Counted from the stretch's first letter, positions 337 to 34,950 are shown. The stretch: 64,000 nt of DNA from Balamuthia mandrillaris (GCA_031835245.2 JAVKOQ020000003.1:124001-188000), one strand, 5' to 3'. Program-made: numbers and translations. Notes: generated by a model from the sequence alone, not told the origin.

Positions 337-1065
337 TTGGAGGCTTTTCGTTGCCAGTTGCCTAACCTGTCAAGCGGTATCGATGCCCTCGTGGAAGCAT
401 CTCAACATTGTGTTGTCGACCAGAACGTCCTTTCGGCAAAGCACGATGCGTACACGTATCTTACTTGAAGCCCGATGGAGTAGACCAAACCAAGCTCACA
501 TGTCACGCTATTCCCTTGTCTCTGTGGTACGATCAATGCTTAGATCAGGAATGATGCCAAAGTTTCAAACCACCAATTGAAAATCAAAAGAAAATGATAC
601 GATCTTTGATTTTTTTAAAGAAAGTTTCAAAGCACCAATCAAAAATCAAATGATAGAGGAGCGATCTATGTTTATTATGGCTGATGGTGAACCAGTTTGA
701 AGCCGTGAAATTCATAGAACGTAGAGAGAAAGGAAGCGGCGCGTTTTCAGACCCATGCGTCAAAACGGGGCGGGGCCTGGGCTGCTCTTTCTCCAGAGAA
801 CGTATTGGCCTGGAGGAGGCGAAGGAGGCAGCCCCCCCCCCCCAAGCATTCCGTCGCTGAATCAGACCCGGAATCCCCACCCAAGAAGACAAACAAGAGG
901 GAAACGCGCGTAGGCGTATCCTAAAAGCCTTCCACTTCGAAGTGGAAGCATAAGAAGAAAACCTCACCCGCCCACAACCACAACAAGTAAGTTGCTGAGT
1001 TTTGTTTTTCGGTTTGGAGTATTCGTTATTGTAAACAAAGAAGCTGCCTCTGAAGTCCATAGGGC

Positions 1066-4000
1066 ATGCGTTCACGACGAACTCTCAAGCAGGCCGCCTC
1101 GGCAAGCTCGCGGCAAACGCCTCGAGCCGCCGCAGAAGAAACTCCCCAAACGTGCGTTAAAGTGAAGGAAGAACATGACCGCTGCGACGACTACGTAGAA
1201 GATTCGGCAGAAGAAGAGGAAGTGTTGTCCGTGAAGCTCAAAAAAGAACAGAGAGAGGACGGTCGGCAAGAAGACGAAGAAGGAGAAGAAGAACGAAGAA
1301 GGCGAAAGAAGAAGAAGAAGAAGAAGAAGCACAAGAAGAAGAAGAACAAGAAGAAGCACAAGAAAGAAGAAGAACGTGTGTTTTCTTCTTCATCGAATGG
1401 AGGGGCTTCCTCGTCGCAAACAAGACAGCCAAACAATCGCAAAAGAAGCAGAAACGAGGAGGAAAAAAATGGAAAGAAGAAGGGGTCTCCTTCACGCGAC
1501 GTCAAAGCCTTATGCCCAGATGAGCATGAACCGCCACACAGCAGAAAACATGTGAGTGTACGTATCGTTCTTTTAATTCTTTTTGTTCTCTTATTAATGT
1601 TCATCTTCTTCTTTTTGTCCTTCATTTTTTCTTCTTCTATTCTGTTTTCGAACACACCTTCCTTTCAATGCACACCGTACTTGCACTGCAGAGGCAAGAA
1701 GATTCAAAGAAAGTTGCAACAGAAGAACTCTCGGCTCCTGTCTTTCAGTCTCCCTGCAAGACCCTCCAACTCTATCGCGCGCAACTGAACATCGGAAAGA
1801 GAATGCTTGAAACACTCCTCCAAATGAACACCATCAAACGCCACAAAACTTACAGCTCCATCAGAGTCATCTTCATCGGCCCTTCCTTCGTGGAACTCTC
1901 CAAGCAAACACAAAAAGATTGGAACCTATATTGGCAAACGATGGAGAATGTTCGAGGAAGAAGCTTGATCAATATAAAGAGCATTCCATTCGAGTACGGA
2001 GAAAGGGCATGTTGGAACTCAAACTCTTTGGGCAAAGCAAGTGCTTTTCATGGTTTGGTTTATTTTTCTTTTTCCCTTCATTTGTTTGGTTAAAACTCAT
2101 ATAACGAGTTCAAACACAAAACCTAACAAGCTGGACTAGGGAATAGCTCGTGCCTCAACGTGGTTATTCATGACGAATATCATTGGGGAGCAGCGCACCA
2201 GAGTAAAGTTTTTCGCTTTTTCCAAGACATTGCGAAGTCTTTAGACCAATATCCCGAAACGGACTGTGCCATCGTGGCTATATCAGCCACCGGAGAACTT
2301 TTGCTAGAACTGGAAGATCTGTCACCAACGGTTCTCAGGTGGAGGGAGTTACGCCTGGTTGACGAAGAGTTTGCTTGTCCTGTGCGCATTTTTTATTTTT
2401 CATTTCCACATCTCTACATTGTTTTCTTCTCTTTGCCACCTCCTCGACTTTCTCGTGTTTGTTCTCTTTCTTCTCTTCTCATCTGCTTTTTTTTTCCGGA
2501 AACTTATATATCAAAAGGGATATGTTTCTGTGGAACACCTTCCGATAAAGTCGGTCCGAATGCCAGAAGAAGCGGAACATAGACGACTGCAGCTGGCAGA
2601 AAATTATGCTGCCGCGTTTGCAGCTCTCCCAAAGTATACGGACAGCATCGAAGGTACTGTCCTAAAGGCAATGATAGAGGAACGCAAAATGGTGATCGTT
2701 CGTCTGCCACAAACGATGCCTGAGTTTGTGACAGATGTCCAAGAAGCTGCAAAGAGATTTCGTACGACGCTTCACTCCTCTCCACCTACGGCTCTTTTCT
2801 CATATCTTTAGTTTTGTGGCTCTGCGAAAAACACAGGAAACTTTTGTGTTGTAGACCTCACAAAAGATGGAACCCCTCTGCACGACCAACTGCCTCCTCA
2901 TTTGCAGAAGCGGTTCAACAGAGAAACAGTGTGCATTACACACCTTGAAAACGTAGCATGTTTCGTGGTTGTGGTTCACCGTTTGTCCGTTGGAATGCGC
3001 ATTCCTCGTTCCTGCGCTTTCTATGATCTTAGAGCTCGACATGCTGGCCAGAGAGATCAATGTCCCAATTACCAAAACATTTCTTATTCCAGCAGAACAA
3101 GCTTCTTTCAGGACATCGGACGATGTGCAGGGTACAGTCTCTCCTCAGTTTCTATGTAGTCTGGTCTTTTTTGTGCTTTCCATTATGTACTTGTTTTAAA
3201 CGCTTTGGCGCACCAGATACTATCAGAAAGGAGCAGTCTTACCAACAGTGCTTCTGAACCAAACTACTTATAAAAGCTTCACACAAAATAATTGGAAATA
3301 CGGAGACAGGCTCTTAACAGTAGATGGGAGGCCAAGTAAACGACACTCTCACAGATACGGTTATGATGAGGATGAAGAGATAAACGAGGAGGGAGTTTCC
3401 ATCTACGAAAGACTGTTGAAACACTTGCTTTTGCTGGATGCAGAGCCTCAGATAGGAAAGACGGGAGCGGCTTTGAGCTTTCTTGGAGCATTGGAGGAGT
3501 GGATCTTTAATAACCAGATAAAGAAGGGCTCCGTGACCAATGACGCTGGTAAAATGGAGCCATGTGGTGCCTCTCTCTCTCTCTCTTGTTTCATCTTCAT
3601 CCATGCTAAAGCTTGATTTCAGCACTTCTAAACAGATTAACAAAGGAAGCACACTTTCGTTGTGCTGGAGGCGCCCCTTGCTGGCCGACGCCAGACGATT
3701 ATGAACGGTATCACATATGTTTGGAAGAAGAACGAACGCAGAGCTGGAAGCTCTCGGATCCGACCACCTTCATCGCTCAGCAGCTATCGCAGCACAGGAA
3801 GGTGGCAGATTGTGGATGTGGCTCAGGCTTTCTCTTTCGCCAGCTTTCACAACGTACTCCCTCCCACCTTGACAACCTTTTCGTTGCAACATGCTCATGA
3901 ATGTTGTTTTACTTTTCGAATTCTTTGAAGTGAACAGCAGAACAACTGTTCATGGATACGATGTGGACCCTTCAATACTTCTGCTTGCTCAAGGACCTCC

Positions 4001-4349
4001 TAGCAGAACTCAATTTGTTCCTCATGTGGGAGACGTGTTGGAAGAGCTTCCCTCCGACACTCCCTTTTCCGCCGTGGTGTTCAGCCTCTCCTTCTTCCTG
4101 AACGACATCACGAATCACGTTCGAACGGCATGGAGTGCCCTGCGATCGGAGAGCGAAGACAACAACGCTGGAGAGCTGTTCATCGCAGATGTGGCAGTTC
4201 GCTTCCCCAAGGATTTTGTCGCCTGCGTGGAAAGCAATGGATTCACCAAATTACAGGAGCAACGCTTAGGTCAGTTTGCGGTGCTGCGATTCCAGAAGGA
4301 GGAGAAACGCGGAGAGAAGAAGCTCGTGCGCTTGTTTGACCCTGCCTGA
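1066..4349 (+). CDS. Circularly permuted SF2 helicase fused to C-terminal RRP8/NML-like SAM-dependent methyltransferase; K/E-rich N-terminus with NLS-like tracts
   Basis: Inferred in-frame GT-AG exons: 1066-1551, 1692-2052, 2131-2381, 2518-2761, 2855-3131, 3217-3548, 3623-3853, 3931-4349. Motifs in order: Ia IFIGPSFVELSKQT, II VVIHDEYHWG, III ISATG, V VVVHRLSVGMRIP, VI FFQDIGRCAG, then Walker A LLLDAEPQIGKTG. MTase: YH..ERTQSW...P, VADCGCGSG, AVVFSLSF, GELFIADVAVRF. Confidence 0.8.
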
Positions 4350-5110
4350 TAGGATATTTTTTTATATTCCACTCCGAACCGCCGGCGATCGTGATTGGTT
4401 CAAATAAATCCCTTTTATCCGTCGAAAAGGTATCATTTCTTTTATAGGTAAATACATACGTCATACTTACCTTTTATGAAATCAACGAAAACTGTTTGAG
4501 GGTTCGCTTGTCGACGCGTTTGATTGAATTAATTTACACGAAAAACCATTTAAGGGAAATTTCGTCTATTACAAAATGGTCCCCTTCTTGCGTCCGTTTT
4601 CTGTCCATTTTTCCTCCCGCGCTTTCCCTGCGTGCTCTGTTGGACAACGTTCCATGGCATCCGGTCCCCCATCGTTTGCCCGGTCGAAGGTAATATAGCC
4701 AGCACCCGTCGGCCGAAAACAGTGCATTCGTTCCGGGTTCTTTTGCGACGTTTTGCTCGAGTTTTCAGTGGTGAACAGGAAGAAAGAGCCAACCCGAAGG
4801 AAACAACACATAAGCTTTCTTCCTTCCTTCTTCGTTTTTTTTTTCTTTTAAACGAACCTTTTGAAACTCACCACTCCCTATACCACTATCGTCCCCTTGT
4901 TTCATCTCTCTCTCTCTCTCCTCTCTTTCTCTTTCTTTTTTTTTTTGTAGTTAGTTACACACCTTCCTTCACTGCTTTTTTTCGCTCCTTTCTTTTCATC
5001 TGTAACACCTCCTTTGAGCATAGGGCTCTTTTGTTTGTTTCTTCTTCATCTTTTCTCTCCACGTTTCTTTTTATTTATTTATTTTCCACATCACATCACA
5101 TCATATAACG

Positions 5111-6124
5111 ATGAGGCAGCAGCGTCACCACGTTCATCATCCTTCCTCATCCTCCTCCTCTTTTTGTATGGCCTCACGCCAAGGGCGAACCCCGTTTTTG
5201 CTCGCGATGGCCGCCTCCCTGCTGCTGCTCCTTGTGGCTGGCTCCGGTCTCACACGAGCGCAAACCGTCTCCGACTTTGGGGTGGTGGAGGAGAGTTGCG
5301 TTGCTGGTCGATCCCCCTCCGCGTGTAGCATTGGTTGGGAGGTCACCAACAACGGCAGCGAGCCTGCGCTGTTGATGTGCACCTTTCAGTTCGACGCTAT
5401 GGTTCTAAACTTCAATGGTAATGCTTCCTTCTTTCTCTCTTCTTTCTTTCTCTCTCTTTCTTCGCTTCTTTCCTGTGTCTCTTTCTCCGCTTCTTTCCTG
5501 TGTCTCTTTCTCTTCCCTCCCTTCCTTCACTTCTGTCTCCTTCGATCGTTCTTCTCCGTCTTCGCTTGCTCCTCTTCATGCAACAACGCTCTTATCCTTG
5601 CGCGATGAACAAACCACACCAACAGGACAAGATCCGGAAGGATGGAACTGCGCGGGAGCGTTGTGCACAACGACGGCGATGGTGGAAGCGGGAGCGGCAG
5701 CCCCTTCCTTCGTCAAAGGCCTATCCGTCCCTTCCGGCGCTGCCGAAGGCAACACCTCCTTCACTCTTGCATGTGGAGGTTGCTCCCCTTTCCTACCTAT
5801 TCTCTCTCGCTTATGTTCCGTTTTTGATAGCGCCATCATCACAGGACCGGTCGTCCCCGGAGATGCCCTCATCGTCCGAAACTCCTCCTTGTCCGTCACC
5901 TCCACTCCGCTCTCCTTTTCTGCCGGGCAAGCGGATGCCTCGGCCGCCATCACCCTTGAGAACGACGGACCCTCCGACGTGAACACTGTGAGATGCTCGT
6001 TCAGCATTCAACCGCAGAGAGCTGCTTCGTTTGATGACTCGAACAACGAAAACTGCCAAGAGGTTTCCAGGGCTAGTGCACAGGGATGTAGCATTGGCAA
6101 TATCGCCAATTCCGGTTCACAAGG

Positions 6125-6209
<85 letters not shown>

Positions 6210-7724
6210 TCTTTGGCTTTTTCCTCACTTTCTTTCTCATTTTTAATATATAACATCATTATAGCGTTGAACTTGGCCATTCGAGTGAACCCATCGCAAC
6301 GAGAAGACTTCACCATTCGAGTGGATGAATGCACAGCTGCTTCGGATGTTCACATTGCTCTTCCATCCTCCATCGACGTGAGCATCCTTCCTGACCTCGA
6401 CATCAACGTCACTCCCGAGTTTGTTGGTACGGTTTCTCTCTGCTGACTTCTCTTTAGACCTGCCTTATATTTACCGACCCTTCTTCATGCAAAAACACAG
6501 AGTTACCAACAGAGTTAATCGCTGGACAAGTGTTGGGATTCGCGTTCAACCTGACCAACGAGGGACAGGCTTCTTCTCTCGGCACTGCTTGCTCCATTCA
6601 ATGGGCAATCAACGACGCCGACGAAGACGATGCCCGCGACCTGTTCTCCGTTGTTCAAATCTCTTCTCCAGATGATTCCGTGGAGTGCTCTCCTTCCGGC
6701 AACGACGACAACTTCTCCGCCATCGAATGTACTGCCGACGTTGTTCCCGGCGCTTCAGCTCTGGCCTTTATCGAACTCTCCTCCAATCCGGCTCCTCGTT
6801 TCTTCGAGGGTGACGAGGATGAAGAACACGAGCTCACGTTCTTCCTCTCCTGCACTGACGAGTTGGAAAGGGAGCTCTCTCCCGTGGACCAATCGCTTAC
6901 CATGGAGCTCTTTGTGGAAGGCCTGACTCTCTCGTTCGTTCAGGTCGAAAACCCTAAAGACAAACGCCAGGATGGAGGCAGCGGTGGTGGTGGAGGCGGA
7001 AGCGGAGGAGAAGTCACGGAGACCTCCACGTTTGAGATCCGTTTGGACAACGACGGACCTTCCATCGCCAGAGAGGTCGTCTGCGAGATCCAACTGGAGC
7101 CTGCCTCCGGGGGTGCTTCCACTAGGAGCATCGCTTTCGTGGGCAACGTCCCTCCGTCCTCGGACGCCTGCTCTTACCTGGGAAGAGGCGCGCTGAGCTG
7201 CGACATGGGGGATGTCCTCCCCAAGGGAGGCAGCGGCGGCAACGTGGACAACAACGGCGGCCGAGCGGATGCCGTGAAGTCCTTCCAGCTGAACATGCCC
7301 TCCGCCGTGAGAGCGTTGGCCGTGGAGATCCGGTGCAGCACGGAGACGCCCAAAGGCTTCGAGGATAACGAGCGGTTGTTTAGAGACAACGTGAGGCTTG
7401 GCAATCCTGAACGTACGTTTCACTTTGTCTTTTGTTCGTTGTTCTTTTCCTCACATTGCTTGAATGAACACAACAGCACCCTCTCCGGATGACTCTTCTT
7501 CCAGCGATGACAGCGATACCGGCAGCAGCCCTCAGGACAAGGAGAAAAGCGGGGGCGACACCGACTTGGGCCCGATCATCGGCGGGGCCGTCGGCGGGGT
7601 GGTCTTCCTCATCTTGTTGGTGGCGATCATCGTCGCCGTCGTTCTGCTCTCCATCAAACTGGCTCCCAAGTATTTCAAGAAGAAGAAAGCCACGCAAAAG
7701 AATTGGTGGGATGATACATTGTAG
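5111..7724 (+). CDS. Type I membrane/surface protein with signal peptide and about four DUF11/Ig-like beta-sandwich repeats
   Basis: Signal peptide MAASLLLLLVAGSGLTRAQ; repeats VTNNGSEPA, ITLENDGPSD, LTNEGQAS, IRLDNDGPSIAREVVC; Ser/Asp linker; TM GPIIGGAVGGVVFLILLVAIIVAVVLL; basic tail; multi-exon; start codon (5111 or downstream) uncertain. Confidence 0.65.
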
Positions 7725-7746
7725 ATAATAACTCATACCTTTGTTT

Positions 7747-10016
7747 TTATTTCCTCTTGTTGGTGCGTTTGTGTTGTGCGTGCTGTTGTTGCAGCTGTTT
7801 CTTGAAGAAAACGGGGAGAGGAAGTTTGTTGGAGACGGCGGATTCGATTTGGCGGACGAGTGCCCCTTCTGTGTCTTCCACATAAAAGCTTGTTGCTAAA
7901 GAGAGAGAGAGAGAGAGAGAGAATGAGAATGAGACAAAAAAAAACAGAAAAAAGTAAGAAGAAAACGAACCTAATCCGGTTGAGCCGGCACGACCAGTTC
8001 TAAATAGCAATATGAAGAACAGTAAAGAAGGGAGAATGAGGAGTGGAGATTGACAAGCAAGATTCAGAGAATCAGAATAAGCAACGAGAGAGAGAGAGAG
8101 AGAGAGAGAGAAGAACAAACCTTCCGATACGATGAAGATAGTCAACCACATTATCAGCAAAGTGATACTGAATGACATGATCGACGTGAGGAAAGTCCAT
8201 GCCGCGAGCGGCGAGGTTGGTGCACACCATCACCGGCGCTGATCCAGCCTTGAATGCTGCCAAGTTCTTGTTTGCTTTATTAGCTGGTAGCGACCTATTT
8301 ATTTGTTTAAACCAAAAGTTAAAAAACAAGACCAATAGAAGAAGCAAAAGAGAAGTAGAAACGACGTTCGGAAAGTGGAGAACAAGAGTAAAGAATAGGA
8401 GGAGACACTAACCGATGAAAAGTAACATGGTCGATGCCAGCGCCGGAAAGAAGTATGCCCAGTTCGTCAACACTGTCCGCATCGTTTGCAAAGATCAGAG
8501 TGCGTTGGAACGGAGGTCGCAATAGTGGTCTCTCTTCATCTTCTGCTCCTTCTTCAAGTTCATCTTCAAACGTTTCATGTTCATCATAACCTTCTTCTTC
8601 CTCACTTTCATCTTCTTCACTGTATTCAGCTTTCTTATCGTCTCGTTCTGAGTTTGCTTCTGCTTCTTCTCCTTCGTCAGTTTGTTCTTCTTTATCTTTT
8701 TCCTCTTCTTCTGTTGCTGTTGCTTCTGTTTGTTGCATAAGTTCTGCTAAAGCTTTTTTACGTTCGTCGATAGGAATGTACGGCGGAAAGACGCACTGTG
8801 GCGCCATCAAAAAGTGAAGCAACAGCTTCGATGGCAACTCTTCTGCATTCTCATCGTCCAATGTGATCCTCACGAAACGTTGCGTTACCCTCGTTATCGT
8901 TCTGTGCATCCATGAACTCTGTACTCTTGTAATATTTGGGAAATGACGCTCCAAAAACGCGCTCAAAGATTTGGTCGTAGGCTTCGTCTCCTTCTTCTCC
9001 TTTTTGTACTTCCCTTCATCTGTTTTTGCTCCATCTTTGATCGATGGCATCGTAGCTGCCACAAATACAAAACTTCGTTCTTGAATACTTTCTTCATTTC
9101 CTTCTTCTTTTCTTTCTTTCTTTTGCAGTTGTTTTTGCTGTCGTTGAATCCGTCTTTCTTGACGACTTCCAGAGCGCAGCTCTAAAAGTAAGTCTTGAAG
9201 CTCCGCGGAGCTCTCTCCCGCAAAACTAGAGGAGAGCATCAAGTCGGCCTCATCCACGACCACTGTCCTAATGTGTCTCTTCCATTTGGGAGCAGTTTGC
9301 AATGCGTGACGAAGAGCAAACGGAGTCATTAATACTACTATCTCTCTTTCTTCATCTTTGCCTTGTTTCTTCCTTTCGTTCTCTTCGTTTTCTTCTTTTT
9401 CTGTTGCTTTCTCTTTTTCTGTTTCGTTACCTCTTCGTTGTTGAGCAGAAGAAGAGGATGACATAAGAAGAAGGTGTTGAATTTGTTGTTCCATGAGTTC
9501 TTGTTGAGATAGTTCTTGAGGTTGTTGTTGCTGTTGTAGCTGTCGCTGTTTTTGTTTCTGTTGAGCAAAGAACGAATTGACGGACGACACATTCGCCAAA
9601 ACTCTGCTGCTAAGCCGAACATTGGAAGAGAGAGATGAAGAAGAAGGTGAATGAGGAGGAATGACGCTGTTAAGCATTGTTTGAACTTGTTTGCAAAGCT
9701 CTGGATTCGGGAGAAGAATCACTGTTGTTGGATAGATGGAAGCAGAATGACGATGAAGAAGCCGTTGAATGAGAGGTAAGAGATAGGCTAGGGTTTTGCC
9801 GGATCCGGTTTCCGCGCCAACCACCACATCGCCTCCTTTTAGTATGGTCGGAATAGCCTTTTTTGTGCGATGAGTGGATTGGAAAGAGAGAAGTTATAGC
9901 GGACAGAGAAGGGAGGACGAGAGAACGAGAGAAGCAGAGAATGAGAGAAGCAGAGAATGAGAGAAGAGGCGCAGAGAAGACAGAGAAGACAGAGAAGAGA
10001 CGCAGAGATAAGAGAG

Positions 10017-33039: not shown

Positions 33040-33510
33040 CGCAGTTCTGCAGGACACTCTCCCATGGCCACACAGACGATGAAAATATGAACATCGGATG
33101 CTCTACAGCCCACTTGGCCATCTCCCAATCCCCTCTTTGTACCGCTTCATGACTTGTCCAACCACTCCAAGGACAGCCATTCTCCCGCAACCACAACACC
33201 TTTAGGTCACCATGCTTTGCTGCAGCCTGCACGTCCTTTCGTTTCAAGGGCATCCCTCCAGCAAATTGCAACATGGCCATTCTCCGCTGCATTGTCTCCT
33301 CGTCCCAAGGGCACCCCATCTTGCGAGCCCATTGCAACAAAGCCAAGTGACCGGTTTGTGCAGCAAGACAGCATGTCCTTTCATCCCAAGGACATCCCCT
33401 CTCGCGAAGCCATCCAAACCCTGTGCATCGGCATTGAATGAGCTCCTCTCACCCACGTGTGACACTTGCGGTTGATGTCCAGGTCCTCTTGTTCCACTTT
33501 ATCACTTCCA
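33040..33510 (-). pseudogene. Decayed giant-virus-type ankyrin-repeat gene
   Basis: Fragments WLRERGCPWDERTCCLAAQTGHLALLQWARKMGCPW and WLRENGCPW joined through frameshifts and deletions; ends approximate. Confidence 0.75.
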
Positions 33511-33675
33511 AGTGCCCAGGCTCATATCCTCGGAGAACACAAACCCCAACCAAGAGCTCTTCCGGAAGGAGCGGCCAAGAGAAGGCCTCCCGGCTCGTGG
33601 GTGGTCAAGACTCACAAACCCTACTCCAGAACCCTAACCTCGGGGCAGTTCGGAAGGAAGAAAGAACAGAAGGAA

Positions 33676-34950
33676 ATGCAAGACTTGCCTGTTGAACTGG
33701 TGTCGCACATGCTGGGCATGCTCCCCCAAGACATGGTGGCCGTGGCAGCCCGCACCTGCCGAGCGTGGTACAACGGCGCTCCCTGCGGTCTACGCAACCG
33801 CCTTTCCATACGGCGCGTGTGCAGCAGCGTGGACTTGTTGCAGTGGGCCATGCGGAACGGCTACCTTGTGCACCGCGAGACCTGCGGTACGGCGGCCGAG
33901 CTGGGCAGCTTGCCGGTGCTCAAGTGGTTGCGCGAGAAGAGGTTTCCTTGGAGCCGCCTTGCTTGCCGGAGAGCTGCCAGGAACGGCCACTTGGAGGTGT
34001 TGGAGTGGCTGCAGCCCATCCATGCCACTGCTTTCGGGGCAAGTGATTGGGAGGATGGCATCTGCGAGGAGGCAGCCTCTGGTGGCCACTTGGACGTGCT
34101 GCAGTGGGCGAGAACAAAGGGATGCCCTTGGGACCTGAATACCTGCAACGGTGCTGCTCGCAATGGCCATTTGACCGTGTTGCAGTGGGCGCTGGATCAG
34201 GGCTGTCCCTGGGATGAAGAGAGCCTCTGCCTTGAAGCTGTAGCTCACGGCCATCTGGCAGTGCTGCAATGGGTCTTTGCCTTGGATGCACACCAGCCGT
34301 GGACGACGGAGACTGCTCGGACCGCCTGCAGTTTTGCGGCTGAAAGGGGGGACCTAGCCATGTTGCAATGGCTGCGGGATACTGCAGGCTGCTACTGGGA
34401 TGAATCCACTTGCATGTGTGCTACCAAGCAAGGAAACGTCAAGGTAATTCAATGGGCAAGAGAGCATGGCTGCCCGTGGGACGGGAGAACGACCATGATG
34501 GCAGCCACCTATGGCCAGTTGGAGACGCTGCAATGGCTCTACGAGAACGGCTGCCCCTGGGACTGGCGCACTTGCAGCTGTGCCGCTGGCAATGGACATC
34601 TGGAAGTGCTGAAGTGGGCCAGGGAGAACGGATGCCCCTGGAACGAGGAAACCTGCACAGAGGCCGCCAATCACGGCCATCTGGAGGTATTGAAGTGGGC
34701 CAGAGAGAATGGCTGTCCTTGGACGGATTATGTTTGCTCTCATGCGGCCTACTACGGACATTTGGAGGTGCTGAAGTGGGCCAGAGAGAACGGATGCCCG
34801 TGGACCGAGTTCACGTGCACAGCGGCAATGCAGATGGGCCATTGGGACATTCTCAAGTGGGCTTGCGAGAACGGATGCCCTTGGGATGAGCAACAGAAGA
34901 ACGAGGCAGTGGCACGCCATCCCGAAATCTTGCAGTGGAAGCTGCCCTAA
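33676..34950 (+). CDS. F-box + ankyrin-repeat protein (Pandoravirus/Mollivirus-like ENGCPW repeats), intronless
   Basis: MQDLPVELVSHMLGML...AARTCRAW F-box; more than 10 repeats of AA..GHLEVLKWARENGCPW. Confidence 0.88.
   Translation: MQDLPVELVSHMLGMLPQDMVAVAARTCRAWYNGAPCGLRNRLSIRRVCSSVDLLQWAMRNGYLVHRETCGTAAELGSLPVLKWLREKRFPWSRLACRRAARNGHLEVLEWLQPIHATAFGASDWEDGICEEAASGGHLDVLQWARTKGCPWDLNTCNGAARNGHLTVLQWALDQGCPWDEESLCLEAVAHGHLAVLQWVFALDAHQPWTTETARTACSFAAERGDLAMLQWLRDTAGCYWDESTCMCATKQGNVKVIQWAREHGCPWDGRTTMMAATYGQLETLQWLYENGCPWDWRTCSCAAGNGHLEVLKWARENGCPWNEETCTEAANHGHLEVLKWARENGCPWTDYVCSHAAYYGHLEVLKWARENGCPWTEFTCTAAMQMGHWDILKWACENGCPWDEQQKNEAVARHPEILQWKLP

What the first reader, a model, noticed from the sequence alone, without database searches (positions are those of the whole stretch)
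1066..4349. Circularly permuted SF2 helicase fused to an RRP8-like methyltransferase: candidate new nucleic-acid modification enzyme
Seen: eight exons can be joined in frame with canonical GT-AG sites. Helicase motifs run Ia, II (DEYH, 2172-2183), III (SAT), V, VI (QDIGR, about 3109-3123), and only then Walker A (AEPQIGKTG, about 3440-3466); no Walker A precedes motif Ia. A Rossmann SAM MTase follows, with RRP8/nucleomethylin hallmarks (YH...W...P, VADCGCG, AVVFSLS, IADVAVRF). Known: this permutation characterises GREB1-type cpSF2 domains, which are usually coupled to a TET/JBP-associated glycosyltransferase implicated in DNA base modification; RRP8/NML forms m1A in rRNA. Inference: a cpSF2 motor with the glycosyltransferase replaced by an adenine-N1-type MTase and a basic NLS-rich N-terminus could be an ATP-driven nuclear DNA/RNA methylation system (epigenetic or anti-viral). 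I do not know of a description of this architecture.
Basis: partly seen in the sequence, partly recalled or inferred. Interest (0 to 1): 0.88.

Follow-up and report, generated by a model that had tools for sequence, protein, structure and literature searches.

The report
Permuted GREB1 motor with RRP8 methyltransferase
An amoeba gene encodes a rearranged helicase-type motor of the GREB1 kind joined to a methyltransferase most like the ribosome-modifying enzyme RRP8; the same fusion recurs in scattered eukaryotes and likely uses ATP to open nucleic acid, probably DNA, and methylate adenines, which is untested.

Summary
Observation confirmed. The eight GT-AG exons (1066-4349) give exactly the 880-aa NCBI protein KAL6079605.1. 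Motifs run Ia-II-III-V-VI, then the only Walker A, then a methyltransferase whose best structural match is human RRP8/nucleomethylin (Z 20.2). It is a family, not a one-off: 33 of the 151 proteins examined carry II-III-VI-Walker A-methyltransferase in one chain. Named relatives with the fusion include Pelomyxa, a bdelloid rotifer and a complete Lithocolla ORF. Other relatives carry the GREB1 glycosyltransferase instead, and one carries both. The motor resembles Z1-type restriction-associated and giant-virus SF2 ATPases, and bacteria and giant viruses fuse the same methyltransferase to normal-order SF2 motors, so the pairing probably arose twice. Best reading: an ATP-driven base methylase, likelier on DNA than rRNA. 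Unproven: substrate, splicing (RNA coverage near zero, no junction reads), Walker A packing, and which partner came first. My searches found no description, but the key 2013 paper was unavailable. This scan has noted the bacterial normal-order fusion and phage permuted-motor/glycosyltransferase pairs before, but not this combination.

The parts
1066..4349 (+). Whole gene, 8 exons, 880 aa (NCBI KAL6079605.1, misleadingly named as an SMM methyltransferase)
1066..1557 (+). Exon 1: charged, predicted disordered N-terminus (28% K+R and 20% D+E over aa 1-185) with a poly-K/R tract at about 1294-1374; nuclear-signal role inferred
1692..2052 (+). Exon 2: N-terminal helix with conserved Q195 (1782-1784; Q in 53 of 56 aligned rows; Q-motif-like, inferred) and motif Ia (P228, L233, Q236, T237; about 1875-1910)
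2131..2381 (+). Exon 3: motif II DEYH (2172-2183) and motif III SAT (2283-2291)
2518..2761 (+). Exon 4: linker and first strand of the second RecA-like domain (R430 in 76 of 76 rows)
2837..3131 (+). Exon 5: motif V (about 2989-3006) and motif VI QDIGR (3109-3123)
3217..3566 (+). Exon 6: displaced strand-P-loop-helix (aa 618-650, 3425-3523) with Walker A AEPQIGKTG at 3440-3466; matches profile positions 659-702 of Pfam cpSF2-GREB1
3623..3853 (+). Exon 7: RRP8-type pre-motif YH (3709-3714), W706, P711 and SAM-binding motif I DCGCG (3808-3822)
3931..4349 (+). Exon 8: rest of the class I MTase (D752, VVFSLS 4074-4091, IADVAVRF 4182-4205), stop at 4347-4349

Best explanation
This is one eukaryotic gene that joins a GREB1-type permuted SF2 ATPase, with its Walker A after motif VI, to an RRP8-like SAM methyltransferase, and it likely works as an ATP-driven nucleic-acid base methylase, probably on DNA. 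Shown: the gene model, motif order, intact Walker A (GKT), DExH, SAT and QxxGR residues, the RRP8-like fold and SAM motif, and the spread of the fusion. Inferred step 1: the C-terminal strand-loop-helix folds back to complete the first RecA domain, so the motor binds and hydrolyses ATP. Inferred step 2: the motor tracks along or locally opens a duplex. N1 of adenine is hidden by base pairing (established chemistry), so an RRP8-type enzyme needs the base exposed, which would explain why this methyltransferase is repeatedly fused to SF2 motors. Inferred step 3: the methyltransferase marks the exposed adenine (N1-methyl by analogy with RRP8), either as a chromatin mark or as a pairing-blocking lesion on viral or mobile DNA. 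The permuted motor would then be a general delivery module whose C-terminal enzyme can be a methyltransferase, a glycosyltransferase (GREB1 type) or both.
For: Catalytic residues are conserved and present in P0001: K629 79/81, T630 80/81, D299 70/71, E300 70/71, H302 66/72, S-A-T 73-74/74, Q541 79/82, R545 80/81, D727 58/64, G729 58/64, D752 59/65. AlphaFold with 93 sequences gives pLDDT above 90 for aa 611-640, with a strand at 618-622 and a helix at 629-650. Best PDB match of the MTase is nucleomethylin 2zfu by family profile (E 1e-24, next 2e-8), Foldseek (rank 1) and VIA (Z 20.2, rmsd 3.3 A, 194 of 211 residues, next 17.5). Yeast Rrp8 is a SAM-binding m1A enzyme whose motif I glycine is needed for SAM binding (PMC3553958 passages). 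Pointers to DNA: the motor matches Z1-type SF2 proteins (HH probability 91%, E 9e-7 for motifs V-VI; QxGKT loop in 11 of 12 Z1 proteins), a helicase type described in restriction-modification operons with DNA methylases (PMC2292703 passages; equating that type with Z1 rests on its motif and my recall). The alternative partner TAGT is related to DNA-base glycosyltransferases (PMC7968844 passages). Relatives carry OTU, C2H2 finger, WD40/UCH or bromodomain modules. Normal-order SF2 + Methyltransf_8 fusions sit on plasmids and giant-virus contigs.
Against: No activity data exist for this family. The RRP8 substrate I read about is rRNA, and GREB1's 'DNA-type' glycosyltransferase was shown to modify a protein, so fold ancestry can mislead on substrate. 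P0001's MTase is only about 21% identical to a fungal Rrp8 and has LSFFL where Rrp8 and the bacterial forms have LSLMG. Motif VI lacks the usual second arginine (QDIGRCAGY; R follows in 10 of about 100 matches), so it may be a switch rather than a processive motor. The gene is barely covered in the RNA runs laid (8 and 2 reads, no junctions) while its neighbours are spliced and expressed. Strain differences give pN/pS 0.48, not significantly below 1 (12 non-synonymous, 7 synonymous, p 0.10).
Confidence: 0.45

Rival explanations
1. An RNA m1A writer with its own remodelling motor: it opens a structured RNA or ribonucleoprotein (rRNA, viral or transposon RNA) and methylates adenine N1, as RRP8 does with the help of ribosome-assembly factors.
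For: Closest solved fold is nucleomethylin; yeast Rrp8 makes m1A645 in 25S rRNA; the charged N-terminus resembles that of fungal Rrp8 P0152 in make-up.
Against: The motor's nearest kin are Z1-type and giant-virus SF2 proteins, not DEAD/DEAH RNA helicases; the patchy, fast-diverging family (about 20% mean identity) does not look like core ribosome biogenesis; expression is near zero while housekeeping neighbours are expressed.
Confidence: 0.2
2. A protein methyltransferase or SAM-sensing module on a nucleic-acid-binding scaffold, parallel to GREB1, whose glycosyltransferase modifies a protein.
For: GREB1 O-GlcNAcylates ER-alpha (PMC7968844); relatives carry protein-modifying or chromatin-reading modules such as OTU, UCH, kinase and bromodomain; the post-strand-4 motif departs from Rrp8.
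Against: The YH, W, P elements before motif I that Rrp8 and the bacterial forms share are kept in P0001 (Y694, H695, W706, P711); unlike GREB1, described as inactive, the ATPase motifs are intact.
Confidence: 0.2
3. A horizontally acquired, decaying copy: a real member of the family that no longer does much in this amoeba.
For: Near-zero RNA coverage; pN/pS not significantly below 1; scores under the Pfam cut-offs; weak splice donors at introns 2, 3 and 6.
Against: No stop or frameshift; both indels seen inside the gene in another data set are intronic; listed changes at E300, I297 and L794 are silent; seven introns imply long residence; all catalytic residues are kept.
Confidence: 0.12
4. Two adjacent genes (ATPase and methyltransferase) fused only by gene prediction.
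For: No RNA read spans intron 6; the NCBI model is itself a prediction.
Against: Only 56 bases separate exons 6 and 7 and exon 7 has no start codon ahead of the YH helix; the same order stands in unspliced single ORFs (L003, L004, L005, L012) and in a complete EukProt ORF.
Confidence: 0.03

Closest known systems
GREB1/GREB1L and GREB1-like proteins (Pfam PF20692 cpSF2-GREB1 + PF20691 TAGT)
   Same: Same permuted SF2 module with the Walker A at the end, followed by a group-transfer enzyme; 22 of 30 long-tailed relatives in my hit list have TAGT there.
   Different: C-terminal enzyme is an RRP8-like MTase, no TAGT hit; ATPase motifs intact, whereas GREB1's helicase is described as catalytically inactive; no trace of an MTase in the TAGT proteins' linker.
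RRP8 / nucleomethylin (Pfam PF05148, PDB 2zfu), 25S/28S rRNA m1A methyltransferase
   Same: Top match by profile, Foldseek and VIA; YH-W-P pre-motif, DxGCG, acidic motif II, LS, G, [DE]xxxR kept; 24 of 36 relatives scanned pass the Pfam cut-off.
   Different: About 21% identity; LSLMG changed to LSFFL; fused behind an ATPase; falls among the permuted-motor MTases, not with Rrp8, in the domain tree (one Rrp8 only).
Normal-order SF2/SNF2 + Methyltransf_8 proteins of bacteria, plasmids and giant viruses (uncharacterised)
   Same: SF2 motor with a C-terminal RRP8-like MTase; MTase profiles match at 98.7%.
   Different: Walker A in the normal N-terminal place, DUF4379 zinc-finger arrays in the three plasmid proteins; their motors match the permuted one only weakly (HH 20% and 2%), so the fusions are probably independent.
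Z1-domain SF2 ATPases (Pfam PF10593) of restriction-like operons
   Same: QxGKT P-loop and a similar motif V-VI region (HH 91%); in Z1 protein L071 the permuted profile's Walker A part aligns at aa 45-122, ahead of its Ia-III part at aa 79-216.
   Different: Normal motif order, Z1 domain, no fused MTase; P0001 has no PF10593 hit.

Membership tests
cpSF2-GREB1 domain (PF20692) | Walker A placed after motif VI, none before motif Ia | tested here: met
   (82 of 151 proteins show the order, 0 of 82 have an upstream P-loop; the rest are mostly fragments)
cpSF2-GREB1 domain (PF20692) | Profile match at the curated cut-off | tested here: inconclusive
   P0001 24.9 bits vs 26.2, E 1e-5; 36 of 36 relatives scanned pass, and P0001 nests among them
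cpSF2-GREB1 domain (PF20692) | C-terminal strand and P-loop complete the first RecA domain in 3D | tested here: inconclusive
   Confident strand 618-622 and helix 629-650, but coordinates could not be inspected
GREB1-like proteins | C-terminal TAGT glycosyltransferase | tested here: not met
   no PF20691 hit at E<=1; the chain ends with the MTase
GREB1-like proteins | N-terminal Zn-binding domain (as described for human GREB1) | tested here: not met
   aa 1-186 low-complexity, low pLDDT apart from one long helix, no such Pfam hit
RRP8/nucleomethylin | Class I SAM fold closest to 2zfu with YH-W-P pre-motif and DxGCG | tested here: met
RRP8/nucleomethylin | LSLMG motif after strand 4 | tested here: not met
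   P0001 has LSFFL; M kept in 13% and G in 52% of 46 permuted-type MTases, against 100% of 29 bacterial and 4 viral ones
RRP8/nucleomethylin | PF05148 at the curated cut-off | tested here: inconclusive
   last-exon ORF 22.6 bits vs 27, not listed for the whole protein; 24 of 36 relatives pass
RRP8/nucleomethylin | Forms m1A in large-subunit rRNA | not testable with these tools
   needs an assay; whether this organism has a separate ordinary RRP8 could not be checked, as no genome is held
Z1-domain SF2 ATPases | QxGKT Walker A | tested here: met
   (Q626 in 77 of 79 rows)
Z1-domain SF2 ATPases | Z1 domain (PF10593) and normal motif order | tested here: not met
Bacterial/viral SF2-Methyltransf_8 fusions | Normal-order SF2 with N-terminal Walker A | tested here: not met

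The most novel reading that the evidence does not exclude
Scattered eukaryotes (amoebozoans, a nucleariid relative, a bdelloid rotifer and many unassigned lineages) have an undescribed ATP-driven writer of N1-methyladenine in DNA, a base so far treated as damage, built on the permuted motor of GREB1; it serves against viruses or mobile DNA, and the methyltransferase and glycosyltransferase forms are interchangeable payloads of one ancient DNA-modification machine, with the three-domain protein P0102 as a link.
Probability: 0.25. Interest if true: 0.9.

Novelty: new variant of a known kind. Interest (0 to 1): 0.64.

Why it matters
It widens the GREB1 family from one glycosyltransferase layout to a modular motor-plus-enzyme system with catalytically intact members, which gives a way to ask what the permuted ATPase of GREB1 originally did. 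It shows RRP8-type methyltransferases paired with SF2 motors in two different motif orders, which points to a substrate other than rRNA. If the product is m1A in DNA, that would be an enzyme-written form of a base known as a lesion. Compact intronless relatives make the test easy.

Tried and rejected
Single-sequence AlphaFold failed (pLDDT 36). No RNA holder was listed in the run index. No permuted relative was found in viral contigs (the one pattern hit lies in an unrelated phage region), in prokaryote genome contigs, in phage records or in 301 genomes of one phylum (where the control rang nowhere either); these searches reach only close relatives and do not show absence. Word-index protein searches returned only 1-2 proteins and would have wrongly suggested an orphan. 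PADLOC gave only generic MTase (mad2) hits in 2 of 8 and a weak Brx hit in 1 of 8; PHROGs one weak hit in 8; NCBIfam nothing above cut-off. A degenerate MTase hidden before TAGT: no match in 22 linkers (best E 0.14). Direction of the partner swap: a FastTree tree nested TAGT forms inside MTase forms, but constrained trees rejected neither MTase, TAGT nor joint monophyly, and the unconstrained fast search scored worse than all three, so I draw no order of events. Homology of Q195 to the SF2 Q motif was not recovered by profile alignment; it rests on conservation and position only. DUF4357 in P0066 is weak (E 0.019). No helicase entered the VIA top 50, which the MTase filled.

Full report
Setting. 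The window is intron-rich eukaryotic DNA with ordinary neighbours (a DEAD-box helicase, a TPR protein, a kinase, a myosin; read by eye from the ORF list). No genome is held. A search with exon 6 returned one protein, P0001, 880 aa, NCBI KAL6079605.1, whose organism name is cut to '[Ba'. That fits Balamuthia mandrillaris, which is my recall and comes from no call.

The observation. Eight exons with seven GT..AG introns translate exactly to P0001. Pfam finds the end of cpSF2-GREB1 at aa 592-641 (E 1e-5, 24.9 bits, cut-off 26.2) and class I MTase models at aa 721-813; the last-exon ORF hits Methyltransf_8 (E 1e-4, 22.6 bits, cut-off 27). RNA does not confirm the splicing: 8 and 2 reads in two runs of which 3-5% was read, and no junction, while genes at 4670-8000 and beyond show spliced reads at depths up to about 25. 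Contigs of another data set differ at 24 listed places in the gene (40 of 61 differences were shown): 19 exonic, 12 non-synonymous and 7 silent, none a stop; both indels inside the gene are intronic. pN/pS is 0.48 with p 0.10, so selection is suggested, not shown.

It is a family. A two-sequence profile (P0001 and an unspliced 870-aa metagenomic protein with the same layout) found 313 proteins at E<=0.001 among 1.84 billion representatives; the best 150 were returned. Of these 150 plus P0002, 117 have the xxPQxGKT loop, 54 of them followed by a related MTase, 33 by a tail too short to tell and 30 by another tail. 82 of 151 show II-III-VI-Walker A in order, none of the 82 has a P-loop in the 250 residues before motif II, and 33 of them go on into the MTase. 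Of 36 MTase-type proteins scanned, 36 pass the cpSF2-GREB1 cut-off and 24 pass Methyltransf_8. Of 30 long-tailed others, 22 hit TAGT, 21 above cut-off. P0102 has all three domains: cpSF2, Methyltransf_8, TAGT. The query carried the MTase, so these proportions are biased towards it. I looked up 20 relatives by name: four representatives had a species, Lithocolla globosa (a complete EukProt ORF), Rotaria magnacalcarata and two Pelomyxa schiedti proteins; the other 16 are unassigned (lineages). Four metagenomic loci hold Walker A and MTase in one uninterrupted ORF behind motif VI (L003, L004, L005, L012).

The methyltransferase. The family profile's best solved match is human nucleomethylin 2zfu (E 1e-24; next 2e-8). 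The AlphaFold model from 93 sequences (mean pLDDT 76.5, 407 residues above 90) also ranks 2zfu first by Foldseek and by VIA over 48,161 chains (Z 20.2, rmsd 3.3, 194 of 211 residues; next 17.5). Against a fungal Rrp8 (P0152), P0001 keeps Y694, H695, W706, P711, D727-x-G-C-G, D752, D776, L794-S795, G822, D828, R832 and G845-F846, but has LSFFL for LSLMG and 21% identity. So it works like RRP8 in fold and SAM binding, but is not an RRP8 orthologue on this evidence. In the domain tree (80 sequences, one Rrp8) it pairs with the Lithocolla protein inside a 33-member permuted-type clade (support 97); deep nodes are weak.

The motor. All catalytic SF2 residues are near-invariant and present. Motif VI keeps its first arginine but usually lacks the second. 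The Walker A strand and helix are modelled with confidence; their docking into the first RecA domain is inferred, as I could not read coordinates. A glutamine at the start of the N-terminal helix (Q195; 53 of 56 rows) looks like a Q motif left behind. If so, only the strand-loop-helix was moved and 'circular permutation' is a simplification; profile alignment did not prove this, though 7 of 10 Atlas structural alignments with other SF2-type models begin at aa 186-188 and all 10 end before aa 617. The permuted profile matches Z1-type SF2 proteins (HH 91% at motifs V-VI; QxGKT in 11 of 12) better than the motors of normal-order SF2-MTase fusions (20% bacterial, 2% viral). In the Atlas its nearest clusters are unnamed giant-virus SF2 proteins (cosine 0.96), a lead without alignment.

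A second pairing. Normal-order SF2 motors with a C-terminal Methyltransf_8 turned up in the Atlas, on 3 plasmids, in 26 bacterial genome loci and 5 viral contigs. Earlier notes of this scan describe that bacterial family and phage permuted motors beside TAGT genes; none held the present combination by sequence or by all words. I treat them as leads. The repeated pairing suggests that this MTase needs a motor, which suits N1 of adenine, hidden in a duplex.

Mechanism. Most likely an ATP-driven base methylase on DNA (0.45); rivals are RNA m1A (0.2), protein methylation or SAM sensing (0.2), a decaying copy (0.12) and a prediction artefact (0.03). The defence role is circumstantial: patchy spread, about 20% mean identity within the family, low expression, plasmid and viral counterparts. 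Whether MTase replaced TAGT or the reverse is unresolved.

Literature. Nine full-text searches (listings only) showed no description of cpSF2 with an RRP8-like MTase; one search was swamped by the unrelated gene CPSF2, and only 20 of its 433 and 15's 81 papers were listed. I read passages of PMC6163654, PMC7968844, PMC3553958, PMC2292703 and PMC4738411 (no occurrence of RRP8, GREB1 or TAGT in the main text). Iyer et al. 2013, which defined the permuted helicase, is not held; I know it only through the citing papers, and it or its supplement may list this layout. No supplements were read.

Verdict. A real gene and a real, apparently undescribed branch of a known module: new variant of a known kind, interest 0.64.

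Noticed in passing
L002:263-2008 (+), with L072:7977-8318: A permuted GREB1-type ATPase without MTase is fused in frame to a TFIIS zinc ribbon on a 27% GC contig. Its C-terminal part is 80% identical to a stand-alone TFIIS-like gene on a viral contig whose neighbours look, by eye, like DNA polymerase B and uracil-DNA glycosylase. A giant virus may carry the permuted motor.
   Followed up: partly
protein P0102 (1436 aa, ENA contig): Carries cpSF2, Methyltransf_8 and TAGT in one chain, all above Pfam cut-offs; a possible two-step modifier or a link between the two branches. Its DNA was not seen, so a gene-call fusion is not excluded.
   Followed up: partly
L001:174-2441 and 2724-3446 (+): A cpSF2-MTase gene interrupted by one in-frame stop, followed by a weak DDE_3 transposase-like ORF (E 6e-4, under cut-off).
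   Followed up: no
protein P0065 (2887 aa): Two permuted SF2 modules in tandem ahead of one TAGT.
   Followed up: no
proteins P0027, P0049, P0138, P0074, P0079, P0091: Extra N- or C-terminal modules on family members: OTU-like (three proteins, two under cut-off), bromodomain, WD40 plus UCH, protein kinase.
   Followed up: no
window 987-1040 (+): GTAAGT ... AG 54-base segment upstream of the ATG, probably a 5' untranslated intron (read; no RNA support).
   Followed up: no
window 5111-7730 (+): The downstream neighbour is a well-expressed, spliced gene for a predicted single-pass surface protein with a signal peptide; no NCBIfam hit for two of its ORFs.
   Followed up: partly
window 33463-34950 (+): Intronless 495-aa ORF with an F-box-like start and 'GCPW' ankyrin-like repeats, a type I recall from amoebae and their giant viruses (not tested).
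   Followed up: no
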